From NCBI RefSeq assembly GCF_964204645.1, contig NC_134025.1:7254001-7318000 (forward strand): 64,000 nucleotides of DNA, in the 5' to 3' direction. Positions 18,830 to 29,400 of the stretch are shown here, piece after piece. Position 1 is the first letter of the stretch, and the number at the start of each line of letters is the position of its first letter. Position numbers and translations under genes: made by a program. The DNA comes from Tubulanus polymorphus. Its lineage: Eukaryota; Animalia; Nemertea. The notes under the pieces are model-generated. The model was not told the origin of the DNA. It did no database searches and saw only the letters and a program-made list of their open reading frames with translations.

Positions 18830-20697
18830 ATGGCAACAGGGTTTGAAAATCCAGCGCCTACAGATGAGAAAGAAACGGAGGAAAAACGAAAGAAAGTTTA
18901 CAAGCCACCAAAAATAAAAATGGTTTTGAATCTTTTAGTTATCTCCAAAAAGATTTACGACAAATATTCATTAATTTAAATTCATCGATTCAGGGGATAT
19001 GATAGCATTGAAACCTAAAATCGTGAAAGTAATATTCTTTTCGTTATTTCAGGATCTGAGAACAGCTGCAAAAGCTTTCGCATTTAATAAAGCTCTTGGA
19101 GGCTGGCATTCCGTACAAGTTGAAGGCTGTTCGGCGGCTACAAATGCTTTGATTTCTGGAGTAAGATGAATTCTTGTTATTCGTATATCAGTGCCGGCAT
19201 CAACCATTTTTCTATGAATGTTACCGTGAATATCATTAGAATTGGAAACAAAGTTTTCTAACATTCTTCATTCAAGAAAAGACGAAAATTGGATTTCATT
19301 AAATGAATATCAAGACATTGTTTTGAATGTGATTCTTATATTCTTATAGTTTCTCGTCAACAGACGAAATAAGAAGTTTATAACAAAAAAGACAAAAGAT
19401 AAAGCAGAAAACCAGGTAACGTTTATGAATACTGAATACTGATCATTAATGTTAAGATTGTAGAATTTCCGATTCGCAATTGAGTGAATTTTTTGTATTT
19501 ATTCAGGAGTCAGTTGACGAAGATGACGAGAAGTGGGAGACCTGTAGTATTACAGAGGTAAGGACTTCGTCACATTTTTTGTTTGAGTAATTTCCAGCAT
19601 TGGCTTATGTTGTCCACTACTGGACTTTTCATTTTAGAATCCCGTCGATGAGCCAGCAGTCATTGTAAGTCCATTCGATTCTTCTCAACATAAAAAGCAA
19701 AAGAAGGCCACGTATTCATGTTGGAAAATGCCGAACTTTATGGATAATATTGAAAGGTAATCCCAAAATTTAAAGCGTATCTTACGGCTACCTTCATTAT
19801 TGAAGTCACTACAGAGCGTCACGTGTGCATGCAACAACAGTTTTGATCTACTTGGGCCAAATTTGGCCCGGCCAAAAACGTCGGACCAGGCCCGGCCAAA
19901 TTTTAGTCAAATAATTGCGTGTGAATTACTACTAAGTTCTAGAAGTGACTCACTTGGCTCTGATAAGCACTGTTTAGTACCGAGTAAGTGATTTGCGTGT
20001 GAACGCGCTCTCAGGCCTGATCCGTCTCCGTGGTGAATAATTACGCCTTGTTAGAATTTCAGATCACAATGTGGTCATAATTGTCGTCATGAAAATAACG
20101 TTGGATTTCTTTATGCATTATTTTCTAAAGAAATAGTAGGTTCAAGTTTGCGCGACCCGAAAGCTGGATTCCACCGGGGGATAGTCCTTCAGTCGTTTCA
20201 CCGACAACTCAGGTGCATCAGTTACAATTGGTGCTACAGCAAAAAGAGAGAGAACTTGTGTTGTACCGACAACAGTTGAAAAAAGCTCACTTAGAAAACT
20301 ATAAAATCATCAAGTTACTGCAAGGGTGCGTAAGATAATTCACTTGTGGGCATGTGAATGTCACAAAAAGTAACCTAACGGAATTTTGAGGCATAACGGT
20401 AATCTCAGCGAATAAGAAGTATCCACGTTAAGAGTTGGAGATTCAAAAATGAATTCTGATTTCTAATGTTGTTTCGTCCTATTCCTGTATCGATACATAA
20501 GTATATTCGTTTCTAGGTTCACTGGCGATCAATACGAAGAATTATTGAAGGAGAACCAAATCGTCAAGGGGCACATGGCGCGTTTGTCGAGGGAGAACCA
20601 ACGACTGGTTGGAATGCTGAGACAAACGAAAAATCCCAAAATCGCTGAGATGCAACTTTTAGACAAACTTCATCAAACCAAAATATCGAATTCATAG
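18830..20697 (+). CDS. Uncharacterised multi-exon protein with C-terminal coiled coil
   Basis: Chain of GT-AG-bounded open exons: MATGFENPAP..., DLRTAAKAFAFNKALGGW, FLVNRRNKKF, ESVDEDDEKW, LQLVLQQKERELVLYRQQLKK, YEELLKENQIVKGHMARLSRENQRL...NS*. No family recognised; some junctions are uncertain. Confidence 0.65.
19813..20011. mobile_element. Degenerate MITE in an intron of the orphan gene
   Basis: Ends AGAGCGTCAC and GTGAACGCGCTCT are imperfectly inverted. Internal palindromes GGGCCAAATTTGGCCC and repeated TTGCGTGTGAA. Confidence 0.55.
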
Positions 20698-21748
20698 ATC
20701 GAATATGACACCCTCATTTTTTTCACATGTAACTGCTTAAAAGTCTCTTTACGATATTCAATAACAAGATACAATATTTGTTTCATGGACTTGTGTCGCA
20801 TTTTCCTTTTTTCGTCGTTCATGAACTTGTTGTTACGTGTCACGCATTTCATTTTTGTTTGAAGTAAAATGTATCAACAGTGGCTCTTCTGGGGGCCCGT
20901 GTGTGTTTTGAGGAAAAGTATTTGCTTCGTACGGTAGCGTACCGTGCACGTGCTACGGTCGCGAAAATTGCGTGCCCTATTTCATATTTTGTCATCCCCC
21001 GTAGTAAAGAAGACACATTTATTCGTATCTATCAATCCCCAAAAGTAGAAAAGGGTACAACTTAACAAGACGAGGCAGATACACAAACGGGCCCATTCTC
21101 AGTCGGGCATCAATTCCGAAAAAAAATCAAGAAAGGGCATTGTTTGTCTCCATCAATTCCAAAAATAGAAAAGGGCATATATTTCTGCAAGAAAAAGCAG
21201 ATGATTTTCAACAAAAGACACATCATTCTTCAGGATTTCAAAATTTTCGGGGAAGGGTATCAAGATTCGTTTGCCCTTTTAATAAGTTGCGCTACCGGTC
21301 AACAGTATGGTCCCTGTATCCGCCCGCTGGGGGGGGGTCATCCAATCTAGATGCCGGCGCACACTAAAAGATAATCAACCAAAAATATAACACTTCTATC
21401 GCGTGTTTCAGCAATGGGACATAGGTATAAAGAAACTGAGAAATTTCATCAAGGTCGATTTTCGTAGTTCCAGTCACACAGATCATTCAATGACTGATTC
21501 CCAGGAGGGCAATGCGGCCGCAGGGCCGTTTCATTTCCTTTTCACAGTCAGTCAATCCGCCAGACATGGACTCTAAAACGAAGACTCAATGGCTAGACCA
21601 GGAGTCTTTCCCATCTTAAAATGCTGTCATAATAGTGGAAATACATCGAGATAGACTATAGTGATCGGTGACCTGTGTCGGAGCCACCCTTACTTACTAT
21701 GTGCGATGCTGAATAAATGGGATTCGTACCTCATGTTTATAAACATAC

Positions 21749-21771
21749 GCGCATGCACATGCGCTTTCCGG
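21749..21771 (+). promoter_or_regulatory. NRF1-like plus ETS/GABP-like promoter elements upstream of SDHAF4-COQ8
   Basis: GCGCATGCACATGCGC followed by TTTCCGG. Downstream are candidate donors (~21785 or ~21850) and an acceptor TTTTTGCAG at 22177. Confidence 0.55.
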
Positions 21772-22191
21772 TCTCCCAGGGAAGGTCATCGAGCATTCCA
21801 TATATAACCTTTATGTAATAATAAATAGTAATTGAGTCTTCAAATCGTTGTAAGTATACCTTAAGCTATTCAGCATTAAACTTGTTTTTTGTCTTTCATG
21901 GTATAGAGTTGTGTTGCTTTTGTAATAATATTGAGTTTATTTACTGAGTCTATTATAGATATTTCATAGAATTATGGCTCTCAACATGCTCAATACAATT
22001 CACTTTGTTAAATTTAATTTTATTGTAGTCTACTAACTATAGAAACGTTTTGTTATCTACTTCCTTGATGAGACTGCACTTTAGGTCATCTCTCTGAGCA
22101 TTGTCTTGACTTCCTAGCTGTACCAAGAGGGTAAACATATTGTCATGTCTATCACACACAGTGTTAATTTTTTGCAGGATCATGTTATGAG

Positions 22192-22527
22192 ATGGCAATG
22201 TCTGTAATGTCTCTGAGAAAACTGCTTCAAACACCATATCCATTCGCTGTTCTTCGTCATTTTTCAACTAGTAAAACATCCAAACAGCAGAACAGTGATA
22301 ATAAACAACAGAAAAACAAACTGAAAAAGGCTACAACCCCATCAGGAAAGTTGGACGACAATATCGAAACTTCTGCAGAGAAAATTAACCCAACGGTGAT
22401 AATTCCACCATTTCCGAGATTCCCAGAAGATAAGAATCCAGAAACAGGAGAAATAGGAGGTCCACGTGGACCGGAACCAACACGCTACGGAGACTGGGAA
22501 AGAAACGGTCGCGTTTCAGATTTCTAG
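22192..22527 (+). CDS. SDHAF4: Succinate dehydrogenase assembly factor 4 (Sdh8), single coding exon
   Basis: Basic/hydroxylated mitochondrial-type presequence; [11 protein letters not shown]; signature [35 protein letters not shown] with the normal family C-terminus. Confidence 0.96.
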
Positions 22528-22554
22528 ACAGTTTTTTTCCAACAATTCGAAAAA

Positions 22555-25152
22555 ATGTCTCGATTCAGCGATGTACAAGGAATCCTACGTGGATTCAATG
22601 CAATTGCAAAAGCACTATGCACCCATCAGGAGAAGGAATTGCGACATATTTGGCGAAATTCGAGTCTGCGAACTGCGGCGCAGGATTGTCTGAACAAAGC
22701 TGAAGATAAATTTTCGGACTCATTAATTGGAAATCAAGGCCCAAAGGTAAGTTTTCTGTCGGAAAATCTGATTGTACTTGAATCATGAATCTTCCTGAAT
22801 AGAATCAGAATTCTTATGATTTGATATATTTTTAGAATTCAATCATTGATCGAATGACAGTTTTCCCAGCTCAAGCTCAAGCTTTGCTCGAACTTCTCCA
22901 GCAGCAAGTGTCCAAAACTGTTAGGAGTGGAGACAGCAAAACAACAAACGGTTCAGAAGAGTTTGATCCCGAATATGACCTGGGTCTTCCCGAGGATTAT
23001 ATATTACAAGATTCCAGTCCGTCTGTTACGCCAGGATCGACAAGTGGTTCTAAGTGGCAGGTAAAATCTGCATCATTGCGTGGTGTGAATTTGAAAGCGC
23101 CGCACTTAGAACTGAATCATGTGAATAACTTTCACTATGATTCGACTCTAAAGGAAATAACTGAAGAAGAATCGCTAAAAGAAAGTAAACTTAAAGAGAA
23201 TGGAAAAGCTGGTGCCAGCAAAGAGACTCCGCCGGTAGTCACTGAACGGAGACAACATATTATGGAAGCCAAGCCAGTGGACATTCCCATTAGTTCTACT
23301 GAGCCCATTGCAAAACCTGATGTGAAACAAAAAAAGGCACCAAAACTTAAACAAAATTTGAGTGAAAGGGCCAGGGAAAGAAAAGTGCCATCATCTAGAA
23401 TCGGACGTCTTGCTACCTTTGGAGGTCTTGCTGCCGGTCTTGGTGTTGGCGCTCTTGCTGAGGTTACTAGGAAAACTTTTGGTTTCAAATCAACGGGTAT
23501 TATGTCAGATATGAGCCCATTTCTGACCGAAGCTAATGCAGAAAGAATTGTCAATACCCTTTGCCGTGTTCGTGGAGCAGCTCTTAAATTAGGACAGATG
23601 TTAAGTATACAAGATAATACTTTCATCAACCCGCAGCTGCAAAAAATATTTGAACGAGTGAGGCAAAGTGCGGACTTCATGCCAGAATGGCAAATGGAGA
23701 CTGCATTGAATAAGGAACTAGGACCAGATTGGAGAGAAAAGGTCCAGTCATTTGACAGTAAACCATTTGCTGCCGCATCGATCGGACAAGTTCATCGGGC
23801 TACATTACACGATGGACGAGAAGTAGCCATGAAAATTCAGTATCCCGGTGTAGCAAACAGTATCAACAGCGATATTGACAATCTGCTATCGGTTTTCAAT
23901 GTCTGGAATATATTGCCAGAAGGAATGTTTCTTGATAGAGCAATGGATGTGGCACGTCGGGAATTAGCTTGGGAAGTTGATTACCTTCGAGAAGCTGAAT
24001 GGGGCAGGAAATTTAGAGAAGCATTGAAGGATGACCCGGTGTTTTATGTACCTGAAGTGATCGATGATCTCTCATCTGCGCAGATTCTAACTACGGAACT
24101 TGTGAACGGTGCACCAATAGATCAGGCTTTAAATAGTGACCAGGATACTAAAAACATGGTAATTAAGTTGTACATATATCTTTTTCCGTGAATGCTAAAT
24201 ATGACTGTCATCATCATTTGCCAGGATGTTTTTTTTTCATCTACTTCTGTGAAAATATTTTTTGAATCATAATTCAATTTTCAGATCGCTGAGAATATTT
24301 TGCGTTTGTGTTTGAAAGAACTATTCGACCTCCAGTTCATGCAGACTGATCCAAACTGGTCAAATTTCTTTTTTGACCAAGAGTTTAACCAGGTTAGTTT
24401 TTAAAGATTACGAAATGATTCTTGAAGAAATTTCTTGTTAGTTTTGATACTACAGTTTATCTTGCTCAACTAATACGTATTCAACTTGGACTTTCGCTGA
24501 ACTCCTACCAATTTTGCCATATTCAGATTTAGGCAATGTTGACTGTAATAATTTTTGCTCAATTGATATAATAAAGTATGAATTAATTTTCAGTTGTCTT
24601 TGCTGGATTTCGGGGCTACACGTCAGTTTGATAAGTCATTCGTAGATTTATACATCCGAGTTGTTAAAGCCGCTGTAGATAATGATACGGAAGCCGTCAT
24701 ACGAATATCTCAGGAAATGGGTTTTCTGACAGGTTATGAATCTAAGGTGAGTAGTTGAGGTTTTCGTTCTTCCATAGATTCATTGCCCTATGGATGTGTG
24801 TCCTAGAAGGGTATACTTTACGGTCTTATATTAGGTCAGTTGTATCCTTTTCTTATTTTAGGTAATGGAAAGTGCACATGTTGATGCGGTTATGATACTC
24901 GGTGAGGCGTTTAGTCACAATGGAATGTTTGACTTCGGTACTCAAAGTACCGCGTCGCGAATTAATAAACTTATTCCGATCATGCTGCGTCACCGATTAG
25001 TAGCGCCACCTGAAGAAACGTATTCATTACATCGAAAAATGTCTGGTTCGTTTTTACTTTGCGTAAAACTGTCAGCGAAAGTGAATTGTAAAGTAATGTT
25101 TGATGAAGTCTATAACAGATATAAATTTGGCCCTCTAGAAAGCACTCAATAA
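22555..25152 (+). CDS. COQ8: Atypical kinase COQ8 (ADCK3/ADCK4, UbiB family), 5 exons
   Basis: Exons approximately 22555-22746, 22836-24158, 24285-24392, 24594-24746, 24862-25152. Motifs [27 protein letters not shown] (KxGQ), [36 protein letters not shown]. Confidence 0.96.
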
Positions 25153-26428
25153 AAATTCTAATTTCCTTAGTTTGATAGTTTCCATACAAAGACATTTTTG
25201 AAAAACCTTAGTTTATAGGTAAAGCTTCTACAAAAAAACACATTGTATTCATGTTAATTAATTTTTGGATAATTGTGCTTATGATGATGCTAGTTTTAAT
25301 CTTATTGATTCCTCAGGTACCGGTATTTAAGATTACTTGGCAGTACGAATTTGGTTTTTAGAAAGATTTCAGCAATTGATATTTAGTATGTTATATATTG
25401 TATTGAGTGTTTCCTATAATATTGTCCTTGATGAGCAATACTGCCTAAATGAAAAATGTGCAGTGATGTGACTGTGGTGAAATCAATAATAAATTATGAT
25501 TGCAAGAAAAATGCTTGTCTTGTTTTTGTTGCATTTATGATTCGTCAAGTGGATTTCGTGATCTGAAGGACTACAATTAACTATAATTAAGATTGTTAAT
25601 CCTCGAGTTGGTCACGATATTAACCGTAATGCTTGACGACCCGGCGGCCGCAAGCGAATTAGCGTGTTATTAGTTTTTCGTTGCTAATTAGTACAACCCA
25701 CCAGGTGGTGCATCGGTATAAAATCGAATCGTAGAATTTTCGAAAATTTATCGAATTGGTAAGAAAGACACGTTTATTCATTGTTTACATTACTTTTATA
25801 TTCATGGAAAATTGTCTAGATTAGGATTAGTCAGTAACCTGTCTGTGGTTTAGTTTCACGATCGGATATTTTCACAAACCACATGGTATAAGCCCATCCA
25901 ATTATAAAAAGCTTACCACCAACGATTAGGTCTCAGGTAACTAATTAGATTAGGATAATCTAGCACAACTGAGGAATTCCCTTGTTTGTCTGACTTACAA
26001 GTAAAGAGACGTAAAATGAACTTCCACCACACAGTCACAGACACACACGACGACCGTCGACCACCACAGCAGAGAGTCCCTCTGTCCAACATGAAGTTCT
26101 GTTCTACATGAATTACTGTTACATTCATCGTTTCATATATTCTTTTTTGGCTTTTAAATATATCAAATTGAGAACCACCTTATATGCCAAAGAAGTCCAT
26201 CAGAAGAGAGAGGCTCCCCAGCCTCTCGACACTAACTAGTACTACATTTGTTGTTGGCCTACAATAGACGGGCAGCTACAAATCGTAACAAGTAAAGGCT
26301 ATAGAGCCTACATTAAGGAGTTTATTTTGAATGAGTTGTTCAATCAATGGGCTGACAAAATTAAGTGAACTCAATTAAACTGTACGGGTCTTATTGCTTA
26401 CAGAAGCGTGTGGCTTACATTGTCTAAG

Positions 26429-29400
26429 ATGGATGACAACGACATCATGGAACTGGAGGAGGGGAAAAAGAATAAGAATGTGCCTAAAGTGGCAAAGGTA
26501 AGCATATGCTAAAATGAGACTAAAATAAGACCTCAATTCAGATTTCTTTTTCAATCCTCAGATTTTGATCTTATGCAGACATTACTTTTTACCTATACGT
26601 GGTAATAGAACTAATCTTTTGATTTGTCATATAGGTTAAGAACAAGATGCCGGCCTCGGTACAAATTACAGCAGAACAGTTATTACGAGAGGCTAAGGAG
26701 AGAGAATTGGAAATGGTTCCTCCAGTAAGTTCAAAAATACAAACTTCAGTGTTTATTTTTTCGATTTTGGGTATTCACTCCAAATGTATTAATCCGATAT
26801 AATTTCATTCACTGCTTTTAGCCACCGAAACAAAAGATTTCTGACCCGGGTGAACTTGCCGCGTATAAGTTACGAAAAAGAAAGGTAACCAGAAGCTTCA
26901 AAATTCTTGAAAGATGGCATGTTAGAATTAATTGCCGCATTTAGCTGGATGAAACTAATAAATATTTCTCACCCGTAGCTAGAAGTTATTGTTAGACATG
27001 CGAAAAGACTTGTCTAACAATCATTCATTGCAATCTGCTTAAAACAGACTAACATTTTAGAATATCCCGATGTCTAAAAGCTGAAGTCTCATATTTCAGA
27101 TGTTTGAAGATAATATTCGAAAAAATCGGTCAGTGATGCCAAACTGGATTAAGTACGCCAACTGGGAAGAAAGTCAAAAAGAAATTCAAAGGTACCAACG
27201 AATTATAGCCTAATTGATATTCACTTAATTCACATCTCATATAGGCTAATAGTCGCAGCATTGTTACTGAAAATGAATTTATCTCTCTAAATAATGTCGA
27301 ATGTATCCTGCAGGTCTCGATCAATTTTTGAAAGAGCGTTAGATGTCGACCACAGAAATATCACGGTGTGGTTGAAATACGCCGAAATGGAAATGAAGTA
27401 AGTAACATTTGATACTTTCATGAGACAGATTGAACTTTTTTTCTTATACGCCATTAATTTTTCTTTGGTACAATCAATTCCCAGAAGCCGACAGGTAAAT
27501 CATGCTCGAAATGTCTGGGATCGAGCTATCACGATTCTACCGCGAGCGAATCAGTTTTGGTACAAGTACACGTACATGGAAGAAATGCTCGGTAATGTCG
27601 CCGGGGGTCGACAGGTTTTTGAGCGTTGGATGGAGTGGGAACCGGAAGAGCAAGCTTGGCATTCGTACATCAACTTCGAATTGCGATACAAAGAACTTGA
27701 TCGAGCTCGAAATATCTATGAACGATATATCCTTTTCATTCAATCATTACATATTAACGTTTGCGTGCTTCGTGGTCGCTTAGAGCTATGGTGTCGTAAT
27801 TTCCTTCACTATCTTTTACTTGTCATTGTGCATCCGGAAGTTAAAAACTGGATAAAATATGCCAAATTTGAAGAAAAACACCACTACAATAACAGCGCAC
27901 GGTCTATTTACGAGAGAGCTGTTGAATTCTTTGGCGAGGATAACATGGATGAGAAACTCTTCATAGCGTTCGCTAGATTCGAAGAAATGCAAAAAGAGGT
28001 AATGAAGTGCACTCTTGAGAAAGGGTTTATGTTGATAAATATATATATATATATATATATCACGCCTTGATCTTCATTGCATTTTCCTAGCCTATTTCAT
28101 TTATTTTTCAAGCACGAGAGAGCAAGAGTTATCTATAAATACGCTTTGGAACATCTTCCGAAAGAGAAATGCCAGGAAATCTACAAGTGTTACACGATTC
28201 ACGAGAAGAAGTTTGGCGACAGAGCTGGTATCGAAGATGTGATTGTTAGTAAAAGGAAATTTCAATACGAAGAGGTATGAATATATCGGGCAACTGTAAA
28301 AAAGATTTTTCTCAAAAATGAAATGTCTTGGTTCATTTATGTCATGCTGTTTTTAGGAAGTGAAAGCCAATCCTCATAACTACGATGCGTGGTTTGATTA
28401 TGTTCGATTGATGGAGAGTGACGGCGATCCTGAACAAGTGAGAGAAGTGTTCGAACGCGCTATTGCTAATGTACCACCATCTCAGGTAAGGCCTGATTAC
28501 AGCTGTTTGGTTACCAATTACTTCCCCAGTGATGAAATTGTAGTTCTGGTTGTAAATTTCTGGTAGAAGTTATTGAAAACATGATTCATTGAATTGGAAT
28601 ATGAAGAATATGGAACGATGAAAATTATTTTCTATCTCGACAGGTAAAAAGGCATTGGCGTCGTTATATATATTTGTGGATAAACTACGCTGTTTACGAA
28701 GAACTAACGATGGAAGACGCCGAACGTACTCGACAAGTTTACAAGGCGTCTCTCGAATTGATTCCGCACAAGAAGTTCACATTCTCGAAGGTTTGGTTGT
28801 GCTACGCTCAATTTGAGCTACGTCAACACGAGTTAACCACAGCCAGAAAAGCACTTGTAAGTTAGTTTCAACAAACTACCAGTTTTGTTTCAAAGTTGAA
28901 ATATACGTCCATTTGTTTCAATATACTATAGCTTCTCGACTCAATTCTTTTTTTTCGTGTATAGGGAGCTGCTATTGGTAAATGTCCAACCAACAAACTG
29001 TTCCGCGGGTATATCGATATTGAGATTCAGCTGAGAGAGTTTGACAGATGTCGTATTTTATACGAGAAATTTCTCGAATTTGGTCCAGAGAATTGTACAA
29101 CGTGGATGAAGGTATGAACAATCTTCTTACAGCGCTCTGTAATTCCACTGTTAAGGTACATCTTTCCTGGTTTGTGATAAAGTTTCTCTCTGTTTTACAG
29201 TTTGCTGAATTGGAAACGATTCTTGGTGATGCCGAACGAGCTCGCGCTATATTTGAACTAGCGATTAATCAGCCTGTACTCGATATGCCCGAAGTGCTGT
29301 GGAAGGCTTACGTAGATTTCGAGACTGAACAAGAAGACTATGACCGAATTAGGAGTTTGTATCGCCGTTTATTAAAAAGAACACAGCACATAAAGGTAAT

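What the first reader, a model, noticed from the sequence alone, without database searches (positions are those of the whole stretch)
21749..25152. SDHAF4 and COQ8 appear to share one bicistronic transcript, in frame and separated by a single TAG
Seen: the complete SDHAF4 ORF ends at TAG 22525-22527 and the COQ8 ATG is at 22555. The 27-nt spacer (ACA GTT TTT TTC CAA CAA TTC GAA AAA) has no AATAAA, no room for a promoter, and is in frame with no stop. Only one promoter-like module (NRF1-like plus ETS) lies upstream, and one acceptor (22177) precedes both ORFs. Known: SDHAF4 assembles complex II, and COQ8 is needed to make ubiquinone, the electron acceptor of complex II. Inference: an operon-like animal mRNA co-regulating the two proteins. 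COQ8 could be made by reinitiation or leaky scanning, by alternative acceptors (TTCTAG/ACAG at 22527-22531), by SL trans-splicing, or by stop read-through giving an SDHAF4-COQ8 fusion. The in-frame register has about a 1 in 3 chance prior, and TAG-A is not a classic leaky context.
Basis: partly seen in the sequence, partly recalled or inferred. Interest (0 to 1): 0.85.

Follow-up and report, generated by a model that had tools for sequence, protein, structure and literature searches.

The report
Two mitochondrial genes on one mRNA
In a ribbon worm, spliced RNA assemblies run through both an unannotated complex II assembly-factor gene (SDHAF4) and the ubiquinone-pathway gene COQ8 27 bases downstream, and the two are likely made as separate proteins from one message by ribosomes that skip the first gene's start and scan on to the second.

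Summary
SDHAF4 (22192-22527, 111 aa) is followed by a 27-nt in-frame spacer and COQ8 (ATG 22555, five coding exons, 688 aa, identical to a Tubulanus polymorphus RefSeq protein). Spliced contigs from two studies run from one non-coding exon (about 21775-21849) through SDHAF4, the spacer and COQ8; one 2,869-nt contig spans everything. Contigs cannot prove single molecules.

New here: from SDHAF4's third Met to the COQ8 ATG, 345 nt hold no ATG in any frame, the longest such gap on either strand of the window (p about 0.002-0.1 by control). Two tiny uORFs (22182-22190, 22187-22207) sit on SDHAF4's starts, the layout of the KSHV ORF35-36 mRNA. Best reading (0.55): a bicistronic mRNA on which uORF-loaded ribosomes skip SDHAF4 and reinitiate at COQ8. 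Translation is untested.

A read-through fusion is unlikely: SDHAF4 homologues end at the terminal Asp-Phe, COQ8's Met aligns with homologous first Mets, and no fused protein was found. The genes lie on different contigs in 7 molluscs and Lingula, so conserved co-regulation is unsupported; no other nemertean could be tested. Animal mitochondrial bicistrons are known; I found no paper on this pair.

The parts
21748..21771 (+). NRF1-like and ETS-like motifs just upstream of the 5'-most RNA contig end; likely core promoter region (motif names recalled)
   Evidence: motif matches at 21748 and 21766; RNA contigs begin at 21775 (X3) and 21797 (X2); variants at 21750 and 21760 in runs X4/X5 fall inside the motif
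21775..21849 (+). non-coding exon 1, with a weak-context start-stop ATG TAA at 21813-21818
   Evidence: spliced contigs X2 and X3; ATG list on the mRNA model
21850..22177 (+). 5' leader intron, 328 nt, GT..AG
   Evidence: joint 21849>22178 in X2 and X3
22182..22190 (+). uORF1: Met-Leu-stop, A at -3 in the spliced RNA; ends 1 nt before SDHAF4 Met1
   Evidence: translation inferred
22187..22207 (+). uORF2: 6 codons, out of frame; its ATG overlaps the uORF1 stop, it covers SDHAF4 Met1 and Met3, and its stop shares a base with the Met6 ATG
   Evidence: translation inferred
22192..22527 (+). SDHAF4 ORF, 111 aa, one exon, in-frame ATGs at 22192, 22198 and 22207, ends in the terminal Asp-Phe; not found in the protein collection
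22210..22554 (+). 345-nt stretch with no ATG in any frame
   Evidence: longest of 2,671 inter-ATG gaps on both strands of the window
22528..22554 (+). 27-nt intercistronic spacer ending in an A-rich start context (GAAAAA before ATG)
   Evidence: covered by spliced contigs in X2 and X3
22555..25152 (+). COQ8 coding region, 5 exons (22555-22746, 22836-24158, 24285-24392, 24594-24746, 24862-25152), 688 aa
   Evidence: all four introns seen as GT..AG joints in X3, three in X2
25153..25493 (+). 3' UTR with AATAAA at 25488 (another at 25148 overlaps the stop)
   Evidence: X3 contig ends at 25488, X2 cover ends at 25460; hexamer scan

Best explanation
Spliced RNA assemblies carry the whole SDHAF4 ORF and then COQ8 behind one leader exon, and both are likely made as separate proteins from one bicistronic mRNA, with ribosomes predicted to reach COQ8 by skipping the SDHAF4 starts and scanning a 345-nt AUG-free stretch. 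Shown: one leader exon spliced to an exon that holds all of SDHAF4, the spacer and the COQ8 start; two short uORFs packed onto SDHAF4's three start codons; no AUG between those starts and COQ8. Inferred step 1: ribosomes that leak past uORF1 and uORF2 start SDHAF4. Inferred step 2: ribosomes that translate uORF1 or uORF2 terminate on or 1-16 nt before the SDHAF4 AUGs, too close to have regained initiator tRNA, scan 347-364 nt and reinitiate at COQ8. Plain leaky scanning past all five AUGs would add a minor share. Inferred step 3: COQ8 translation would clear downstream exon junctions and limit decay of a message whose first stop lies 219 nt upstream of a junction. The link likely arose by juxtaposition in this lineage.
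For: Run X3 (study P2) has one 2,869-nt spliced contig from 21775 to 25488; run X2 (study P1) has a 633-nt spliced contig from exon 1 through SDHAF4 and the spacer into COQ8. In the spliced RNA there is no AATAAA or ATTAAA between the SDHAF4 stop and 24964. The AUG-free gap of 345 nt is the longest of 2,671 in the window; 0 of 1,719 COQ8 windows of that size lack ATG; P(0) is 0.004 by mononucleotide shuffle, 0.03 by dinucleotide shuffle and 0.03 by synonymous recoding; five animal-like SDHAF4 loci carry 2-10 ATGs over a like span. All 3 codon junctions that could spell an out-of-frame ATG avoid it, against 20 of 23 that spell it in COQ8. Two out-of-frame ATGs within 10 nt before an ATG occur at 7 of 2,673 ATGs in the window (a post hoc count). 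KSHV ORF35-36 has the same layout, with the uORF1 stop overlapping the uORF2 start, uORF2 overlapping the first cistron's start and a 332-nt scan (PMC3561293 Discussion). AUG depletion upstream of ORF2 marks scanning-type bicistrons (PMC11892635 passages).
Against: Only contigs were available; they can merge overlapping transcripts and show no starts, ends or strand (tool caveats). There are no ribosome or peptide data. The AUG-gap statistic depends on the control: the codon-avoidance probability is 0.002 with COQ8 alone, 0.016 pooled and 0.10 with the four non-COQ8 exon stretches alone. SDHAF4 is naturally Met-poor: about 51% of 101 homologues lack an internal Met. An internal COQ8 start site would select for the same AUG gap. 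The X2 contig over SDHAF4 has lower depth (128.8) than the one over most of COQ8 (209.8), which fits either 5' drop-off or extra COQ8-only RNA. uORFs are common and their conservation could not be tested. The pair is unlinked in 8 of 8 other species checked.
Confidence: 0.55

Rival explanations
1. SDHAF4 is made from the long message, but most COQ8 comes from its own monocistronic mRNA, started inside the SDHAF4 coding sequence or spliced from exon 1 to an acceptor at 22519, 22527 or 22531.
For: Most Drosophila dicistronic loci also have a monocistronic form: only 45 of 159 are exclusively dicistronic (PMC4528330 passages). CpG o/e is 1.27-1.41 at 22400-22700, with CACGTG and CCGGAA motifs at 22463 and 22471. 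Depth is higher over COQ8 in X2. TTTCAG at 22519 resembles used acceptors. An internal start would also explain the AUG gap.
Against: No such joint and no break in the X2 or X3 contigs across the region. The motifs lie in codons of an invariant peptide, and CpG o/e reaches 1.0-1.1 inside COQ8 exon 2 as well. Under uniform cover, at least about 43% of X2's COQ8 RNA would carry SDHAF4 (rough). An alternative acceptor would not need the AUG gap.
Confidence: 0.22
2. COQ8 is made by ribosomes that reinitiate after finishing SDHAF4 itself, across the 27-nt spacer, or by internal entry there.
For: The spacer is very short, with a U-rich run and an A-rich start context. Reinitiation after long ORFs exists, mainly with dedicated viral elements or proteins (PMC10275272 passages).
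Against: It would not need AUG depletion 100-340 nt upstream of the stop. No Rfam family matches the region. Reinitiation after a 111-codon ORF is generally inefficient in cellular mRNAs (recalled).
Confidence: 0.1
3. The contigs merge two overlapping monocistronic transcripts: an SDHAF4 mRNA that ends inside COQ8 at a non-canonical site and a COQ8 mRNA that starts inside SDHAF4.
For: De Bruijn contigs can join overlapping RNAs (tool caveat). The X2 cover is in three contigs of different depth.
Against: No AATAAA or ATTAAA in the spliced RNA before 24964. X3 is one unbroken contig. The X2 breaks lie at 22847 (a variant site in other runs) and in the 3' UTR, not near the spacer.
Confidence: 0.06
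4. An operon resolved by spliced-leader trans-splicing at an acceptor beside the SDHAF4 stop.
For: AG dinucleotides flank the stop. A short leader would probably be pruned from contigs as a tip (inference), so its absence is weak evidence.
Against: No loose ends at 22519-22532 in X2, X5 or X6. The AUG gap would be unnecessary. Two paper searches found no report of spliced leaders in nemerteans, and the SLIDR paper's main text does not mention them; this is absence of a report, not of the process.
Confidence: 0.04
5. Stop-codon read-through yields a functional SDHAF4-COQ8 fusion.
For: The spacer is in frame and has no stop.
Against: 141 of 150 and 118 of 120 homologues (overlapping lists) end at Asp-Phe, none has a COQ8 N-terminus behind it, and 0 of 130 COQ8 homologues carry the SDHAF4 motif. 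None of 13 longer SDHAF4-bearing proteins has an ABC1 domain. The best 150 hits of the read-through query match no further than residue 116 of 185. The two terminal residues insert into the SDHA active site (PMC10784507 passages). COQ8's Met aligns with Met1 of homologues.
Confidence: 0.03

Closest known systems
Drosophila sloth1-sloth2 bicistron (SMIM4/Brawnin homologues; PMC9681215, passages read)
   Same: Animal nuclear mRNA with two mitochondrial respiratory-chain factors, a very short spacer (5 nt), a strong A-rich context at ORF2, linked in some lineages and split in others
   Different: There two small paralogous peptides are balanced by a weak ORF1 start. Here ORF2 is a 688-aa kinase-like protein, ORF1 has three in-frame starts, and two uORFs overlie them.
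KSHV ORF35-36 mRNA (PMC3561293, abstract and Discussion read)
   Same: Two short uORFs, the first's stop overlapping the second's start, the second overlapping the first cistron's start, then a scan of about 330-350 nt to the second cistron
   Different: Viral and shown by mutagenesis. Here it is a cellular spliced mRNA and the mechanism is inferred from sequence only.
Green-algal bicistrons such as TOM22_SDHAF3 (PMC7896298, PMC11892635, passages read)
   Same: Short ORF1, long ORF2, AUG depletion upstream of ORF2, enrichment for mitochondrial assembly factors, one of them a complex II factor
   Different: Different partners, conserved across algae, and driven by a weak ORF1 start; SDHAF4 and COQ8 terms were not found in either main text.
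Human STREMI-SLC35A4 and MIEF1 bicistrons (PMC13303939 abstract and passages; PMC4383229 passages)
   Same: A conserved small mitochondrial protein in the 5' leader of a larger gene; two independently older genes joined in one lineage; ORF ratio changes under eIF2 stress
   Different: Other partners. The retroposition origin proposed for SLC35A4 was not tested here, and COQ8 keeps four introns.

Membership tests
SDHAF4 (PF07896/DUF1674) | Pfam match above the curated cut-off | tested here: met
   75.3 bits against 23.5; PDB SDHAF4 chain E 2.3e-16
SDHAF4 (PF07896/DUF1674) | Conserved terminal Asp-Phe that contacts the SDHA active site | tested here: met
   D110 and F111 invariant in 27 aligned sequences; role from PMC10784507
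SDHAF4 (PF07896/DUF1674) | Mitochondrial presequence and import | tested here: inconclusive
   first 30 aa have 4 Arg/Lys and no Asp/Glu; composition only
COQ8/ADCK3-4 (ABC1, PF03109) | ABC1 domain with KxGQ and AAAS motifs (motif names recalled) and the animal COQ8 N-terminus | tested here: met
   245.8 bits; alignment; identical to XP_074662126.1
Bicistronic mRNA | Both complete ORFs on one mature spliced molecule | tested here: inconclusive
   met at contig level in two studies; no long or raw reads
Bicistronic mRNA | Both proteins translated from that molecule | not testable with these tools
   needs ribosome profiling, proteomics or reporters
Leaky-scanning bicistron (algal or sloth type) | AUG depletion upstream of ORF2 | tested here: met
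   0 ATG in 345 nt; p 0.002-0.1 by control
Leaky-scanning bicistron (algal or sloth type) | A single weak start context at ORF1 | tested here: not met
   three in-frame ATGs, each with G at -3 and Met1 with G at +4, plus two uORF ATGs; the species' own start consensus was not measured
uORF-bypass reinitiation (KSHV ORF35-36 type) | Short uORF overlapping the first cistron's start, then a long AUG-free scan | tested here: met
   uORF2 22187-22207; 347 nt to the COQ8 ATG
uORF-bypass reinitiation (KSHV ORF35-36 type) | uORF translated and required for ORF2; position conserved in relatives | not testable with these tools
   no reporter data; no nemertean DNA obtainable
Spliced-leader operon | Leader trans-spliced onto the downstream gene | tested here: inconclusive
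   no loose end at the candidate acceptors, but contigs only
Programmed stop read-through fusion | Fused homologues or tolerated C-terminal extension | tested here: not met

The most novel reading that the evidence does not exclude
A cellular animal mRNA that uses a herpesvirus-type dual-uORF bypass to divide ribosomes between a complex II assembly factor and a ubiquinone-synthesis kinase. The ratio of complex II assembly to CoQ supply would then be set at initiation, and shifted by eIF2 status, on a single message.
Probability: 0.3. Interest if true: 0.75.

Novelty: new member of a known kind. Interest (0 to 1): 0.5.

Why it matters
It recovers a conserved respiratory-chain gene that seems to be missing from the protein record for this species because it sits in another gene's 5' leader: none of three start variants is in the collection, while COQ8 is. 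It adds an independent case of a small mitochondrial assembly factor joined to a larger gene on one eukaryotic mRNA. The leader is compact and makes a sharp prediction (uORF-dependent access to ORF2) that a few reporter constructs can test. The metabolic link (complex II passes electrons to ubiquinone) is attractive, but it is not conserved in molluscs or a brachiopod, so selection for co-regulation is not shown.

Tried and rejected
No whole genome is held for this window, so a second SDHAF4 copy and the genome-wide frequency of such loci could not be checked. The run search listed no holder on record as RNA. X2, X3 and X6 count as RNA here only because they are spliced (joints; exon-junction loose ends). 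X1, X4 and X5 show no splice joints and were not used as RNA; X7 laid nothing, which is no evidence. Contig depth was used only for one rough bound, against the tool's caution, and does not rank genes. The metagenome scan returned the best 80 of 582 relatives from 6 of 64 parts of the collection; none of the 80 holds COQ8 by tblastn or by a COQ8 N-terminal profile. Of the 20 whose context I printed, about six look animal, and I could identify none as nemertean, so this says little on synteny. The 'longer' protein search had only 101 candidates and is weak evidence by itself. Only 120 of 1,240 SDHAF4 hits were listed, so an annotated Lineus or second Tubulanus SDHAF4 may be hidden. Rfam found nothing in 20500-26500. 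Repeats near the locus are short and probably chance. Local folds of the spacer were run without shuffle controls and are not used. A retroposed origin for SDHAF4 was considered and left open: the SDHAF4 matches in L001-L005 also run as single stretches. Literature: (SDHAF4 with bicistronic, dicistronic or COQ8) listed no paper on this pair by title or abstract start; searches found nothing on nemertean trans-splicing; fly gene names (recalled) were absent from 12 searched supplements of PMC4528330, but file 1 was not searchable and may be the dicistronic list. Earlier-finding look-ups were empty. No structure or complex prediction was run.
Full report
Observation. The coordinates are right: SDHAF4 ORF 22192-22527, a 27-nt in-frame spacer without stop or AATAAA, and the COQ8 ATG at 22555. 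The first ORF scores 75.3 bits on PF07896 and matches the solved mitochondrial SDHAF4 chain 8dyd_C. Five exons give an open 688-aa COQ8 identical to P0134, which the collection names COQ8B-like of the nemertean Tubulanus polymorphus, XP_074662126.1. The SDHAF4 ORF, tried from each of its three starts, is not in the collection, and no near-identical protein headed the homologue list. It is therefore probably unannotated (inference).

RNA evidence. Seven runs were listed, none on record as RNA; all seven were laid, as contigs. X3 (study P2) has a single 2,869-nt contig with five GT..AG joints, from 21775 through a non-coding exon, all of SDHAF4, the spacer and all of COQ8 to 25488, where an AATAAA lies. 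X2 (study P1) has a 633-nt contig from the same exon through SDHAF4 and the spacer to the first COQ8 junction, then a 1,961-nt contig for the rest. X6 (same sample as X3) has short pieces over SDHAF4 and COQ8 with a gap across the spacer. X1, X4 and X5 show no splice joints, and X7 laid nothing. No joint enters at 22519-22532 and no loose end lies there among those shown (one search hid 107 loose ends; one search showed all for its four runs). The spliced RNA has no AATAAA or ATTAAA from the SDHAF4 stop to 24964. Contigs can merge overlapping RNAs and lose rare forms, so this supports but does not prove one molecule; I put a real SDHAF4-to-COQ8 mRNA at about 0.9.

How COQ8 could be reached. 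On the spliced model the AUGs are 21813 (start-stop, weak context), 22182 (uORF1, 2 codons, A at -3), 22187 (uORF2, 6 codons), the SDHAF4 starts at 22192, 22198 and 22207, and then none until 22555. That 345-nt gap is the longest of 2,671 on both strands of the window. None of 1,719 windows of that size in COQ8 lacks an ATG. Null probabilities are 0.004 (mononucleotide shuffle), 0.03 (dinucleotide shuffle) and 0.03 (synonymous recoding). All 3 codon junctions that could spell an out-of-frame ATG avoid it, against 20 of 23 in COQ8. The other four coding stretches give only 7 of 13, so this probability runs from 0.002 to 0.10, and about half of 101 homologues have no internal Met anyway. The signal is modest, but it is the one that scanning predicts (PMC11892635 passages). 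Five AUGs within 28 nt are a poor substrate for plain leaky scanning. The two uORFs, however, end on or 1-16 nt before the SDHAF4 starts and 347-364 nt before COQ8. KSHV ORF35-36 has this layout and was shown to use it: ribosomes translating the overlapping uORF bypass the first cistron and reinitiate 332 nt on (PMC3561293 Discussion). Two out-of-frame ATGs within 10 nt before an ATG occur at 7 of 2,673 ATGs in the window (post hoc). I commit to this bypass as the main route, at 0.55 for the whole model; every translation step is inferred.

Read-through. SDHAF4's last two residues are invariant in 27 aligned sequences and contact the SDHA active site (PMC10784507 passages). 141 of 150 and 118 of 120 homologues end there (overlapping lists); the exceptions have short unrelated tails or are cut short, and none matches a COQ8 N-terminal profile. 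No fusion appeared among 13 longer proteins, among the best 150 of 2,826 hits to the read-through query, or in 130 COQ8 homologues. COQ8's Met aligns with the first Met of homologues. The in-frame register is best read as chance.

Conservation. By the contig lengths that the protein searches report, SDHAF4 and COQ8 lie on different contigs in Gigantopelta, two Haliotis species, Mytilus edulis, Patella, Littorina, Batillaria and Lingula: 8 of 8 species in which I could place both (tabulated). Three of these pairs are on scaffolds under 4 Mb, but genes 27 nt apart would rarely be split by assembly. None of 80 metagenome loci holds COQ8, but few are animal. No other nemertean locus was reachable; the Lineus COQ8 was found, its SDHAF4 was not among the hits listed.

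Comparison. Bicistronic animal mRNAs are established: 159 dicistronic pairs in Drosophila, 45 of them exclusive (PMC4528330 passages). Mitochondrial examples include sloth1-sloth2, MIEF1 and SLC35A4/STREMI, and algal TOM22_SDHAF3. This locus works like these and meets the AUG-depletion feature, but not the single weak ORF1 start. It meets the positional features of the KSHV type, with function untested. Searches listed no paper on an SDHAF4-COQ8 transcript; the library lacks most subscription papers, and one supplement of the Drosophila paper could not be searched. One earlier AI note on a fungal locus describes a similar kind of arrangement; I did not test it and it carries no weight here.

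Verdict. Real, new as a pair, a member of a known kind. Interest 0.5. If the uORF bypass is confirmed in this cellular mRNA it would merit about 0.75 (probability 0.3).

Noticed in passing
P0001 and P0006: Public gene models in Dimorphilus gyrociliatus (558 aa) and Argiope bruennichi (674 aa, CRTC1) join an SDHAF4 lacking its last residues to an unrelated protein. These may be annotation merges of SDHAF4 lying just upstream of other genes, which would hint at further SDHAF4-first loci.
   Followed up: partly
window 21750 and 21760: Variants in runs X4 and X5 fall inside the NRF1-like motif, so the motif is polymorphic.
   Followed up: no
window 25826-25931: A very high-copy short repeat just past the COQ8 3' end (summed depth above 100,000 in X1, many unrelated flanks), probably a small mobile element.
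   Followed up: no
window 25165: A 14-nt insertion allele in the COQ8 3' UTR in run X3.
   Followed up: no
window 22836-24158: One 1,323-nt exon carries most of COQ8, which has only four coding introns; vertebrate COQ8 genes have many more (recalled). Intron loss or partial retroposition was not tested.
   Followed up: no
window 10284-54013: Neighbours by Pfam: PIG-F (-, 10.3 kb), cyclin (-, 15.3 kb), crooked-neck-like HAT protein (+, from about 26647), IGFBP and Kazal domains (+, 31.6-34.0 kb), PP2A B56 (+, 53.7 kb).
   Followed up: partly
L013:3792 onward and L021: In bacterial-looking loci the SDHAF4 homologue is followed closely by an ORF whose start resembles SdhC (recalled likeness).
   Followed up: no
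proteins P0281, P0302, P0311, P0335, P0357, P0370, P0393, P0406, P0091: Homologues that run past the terminal Asp-Phe mostly continue with Trp, which suggests gene calls that read TGA as Trp rather than real extensions.
   Followed up: no
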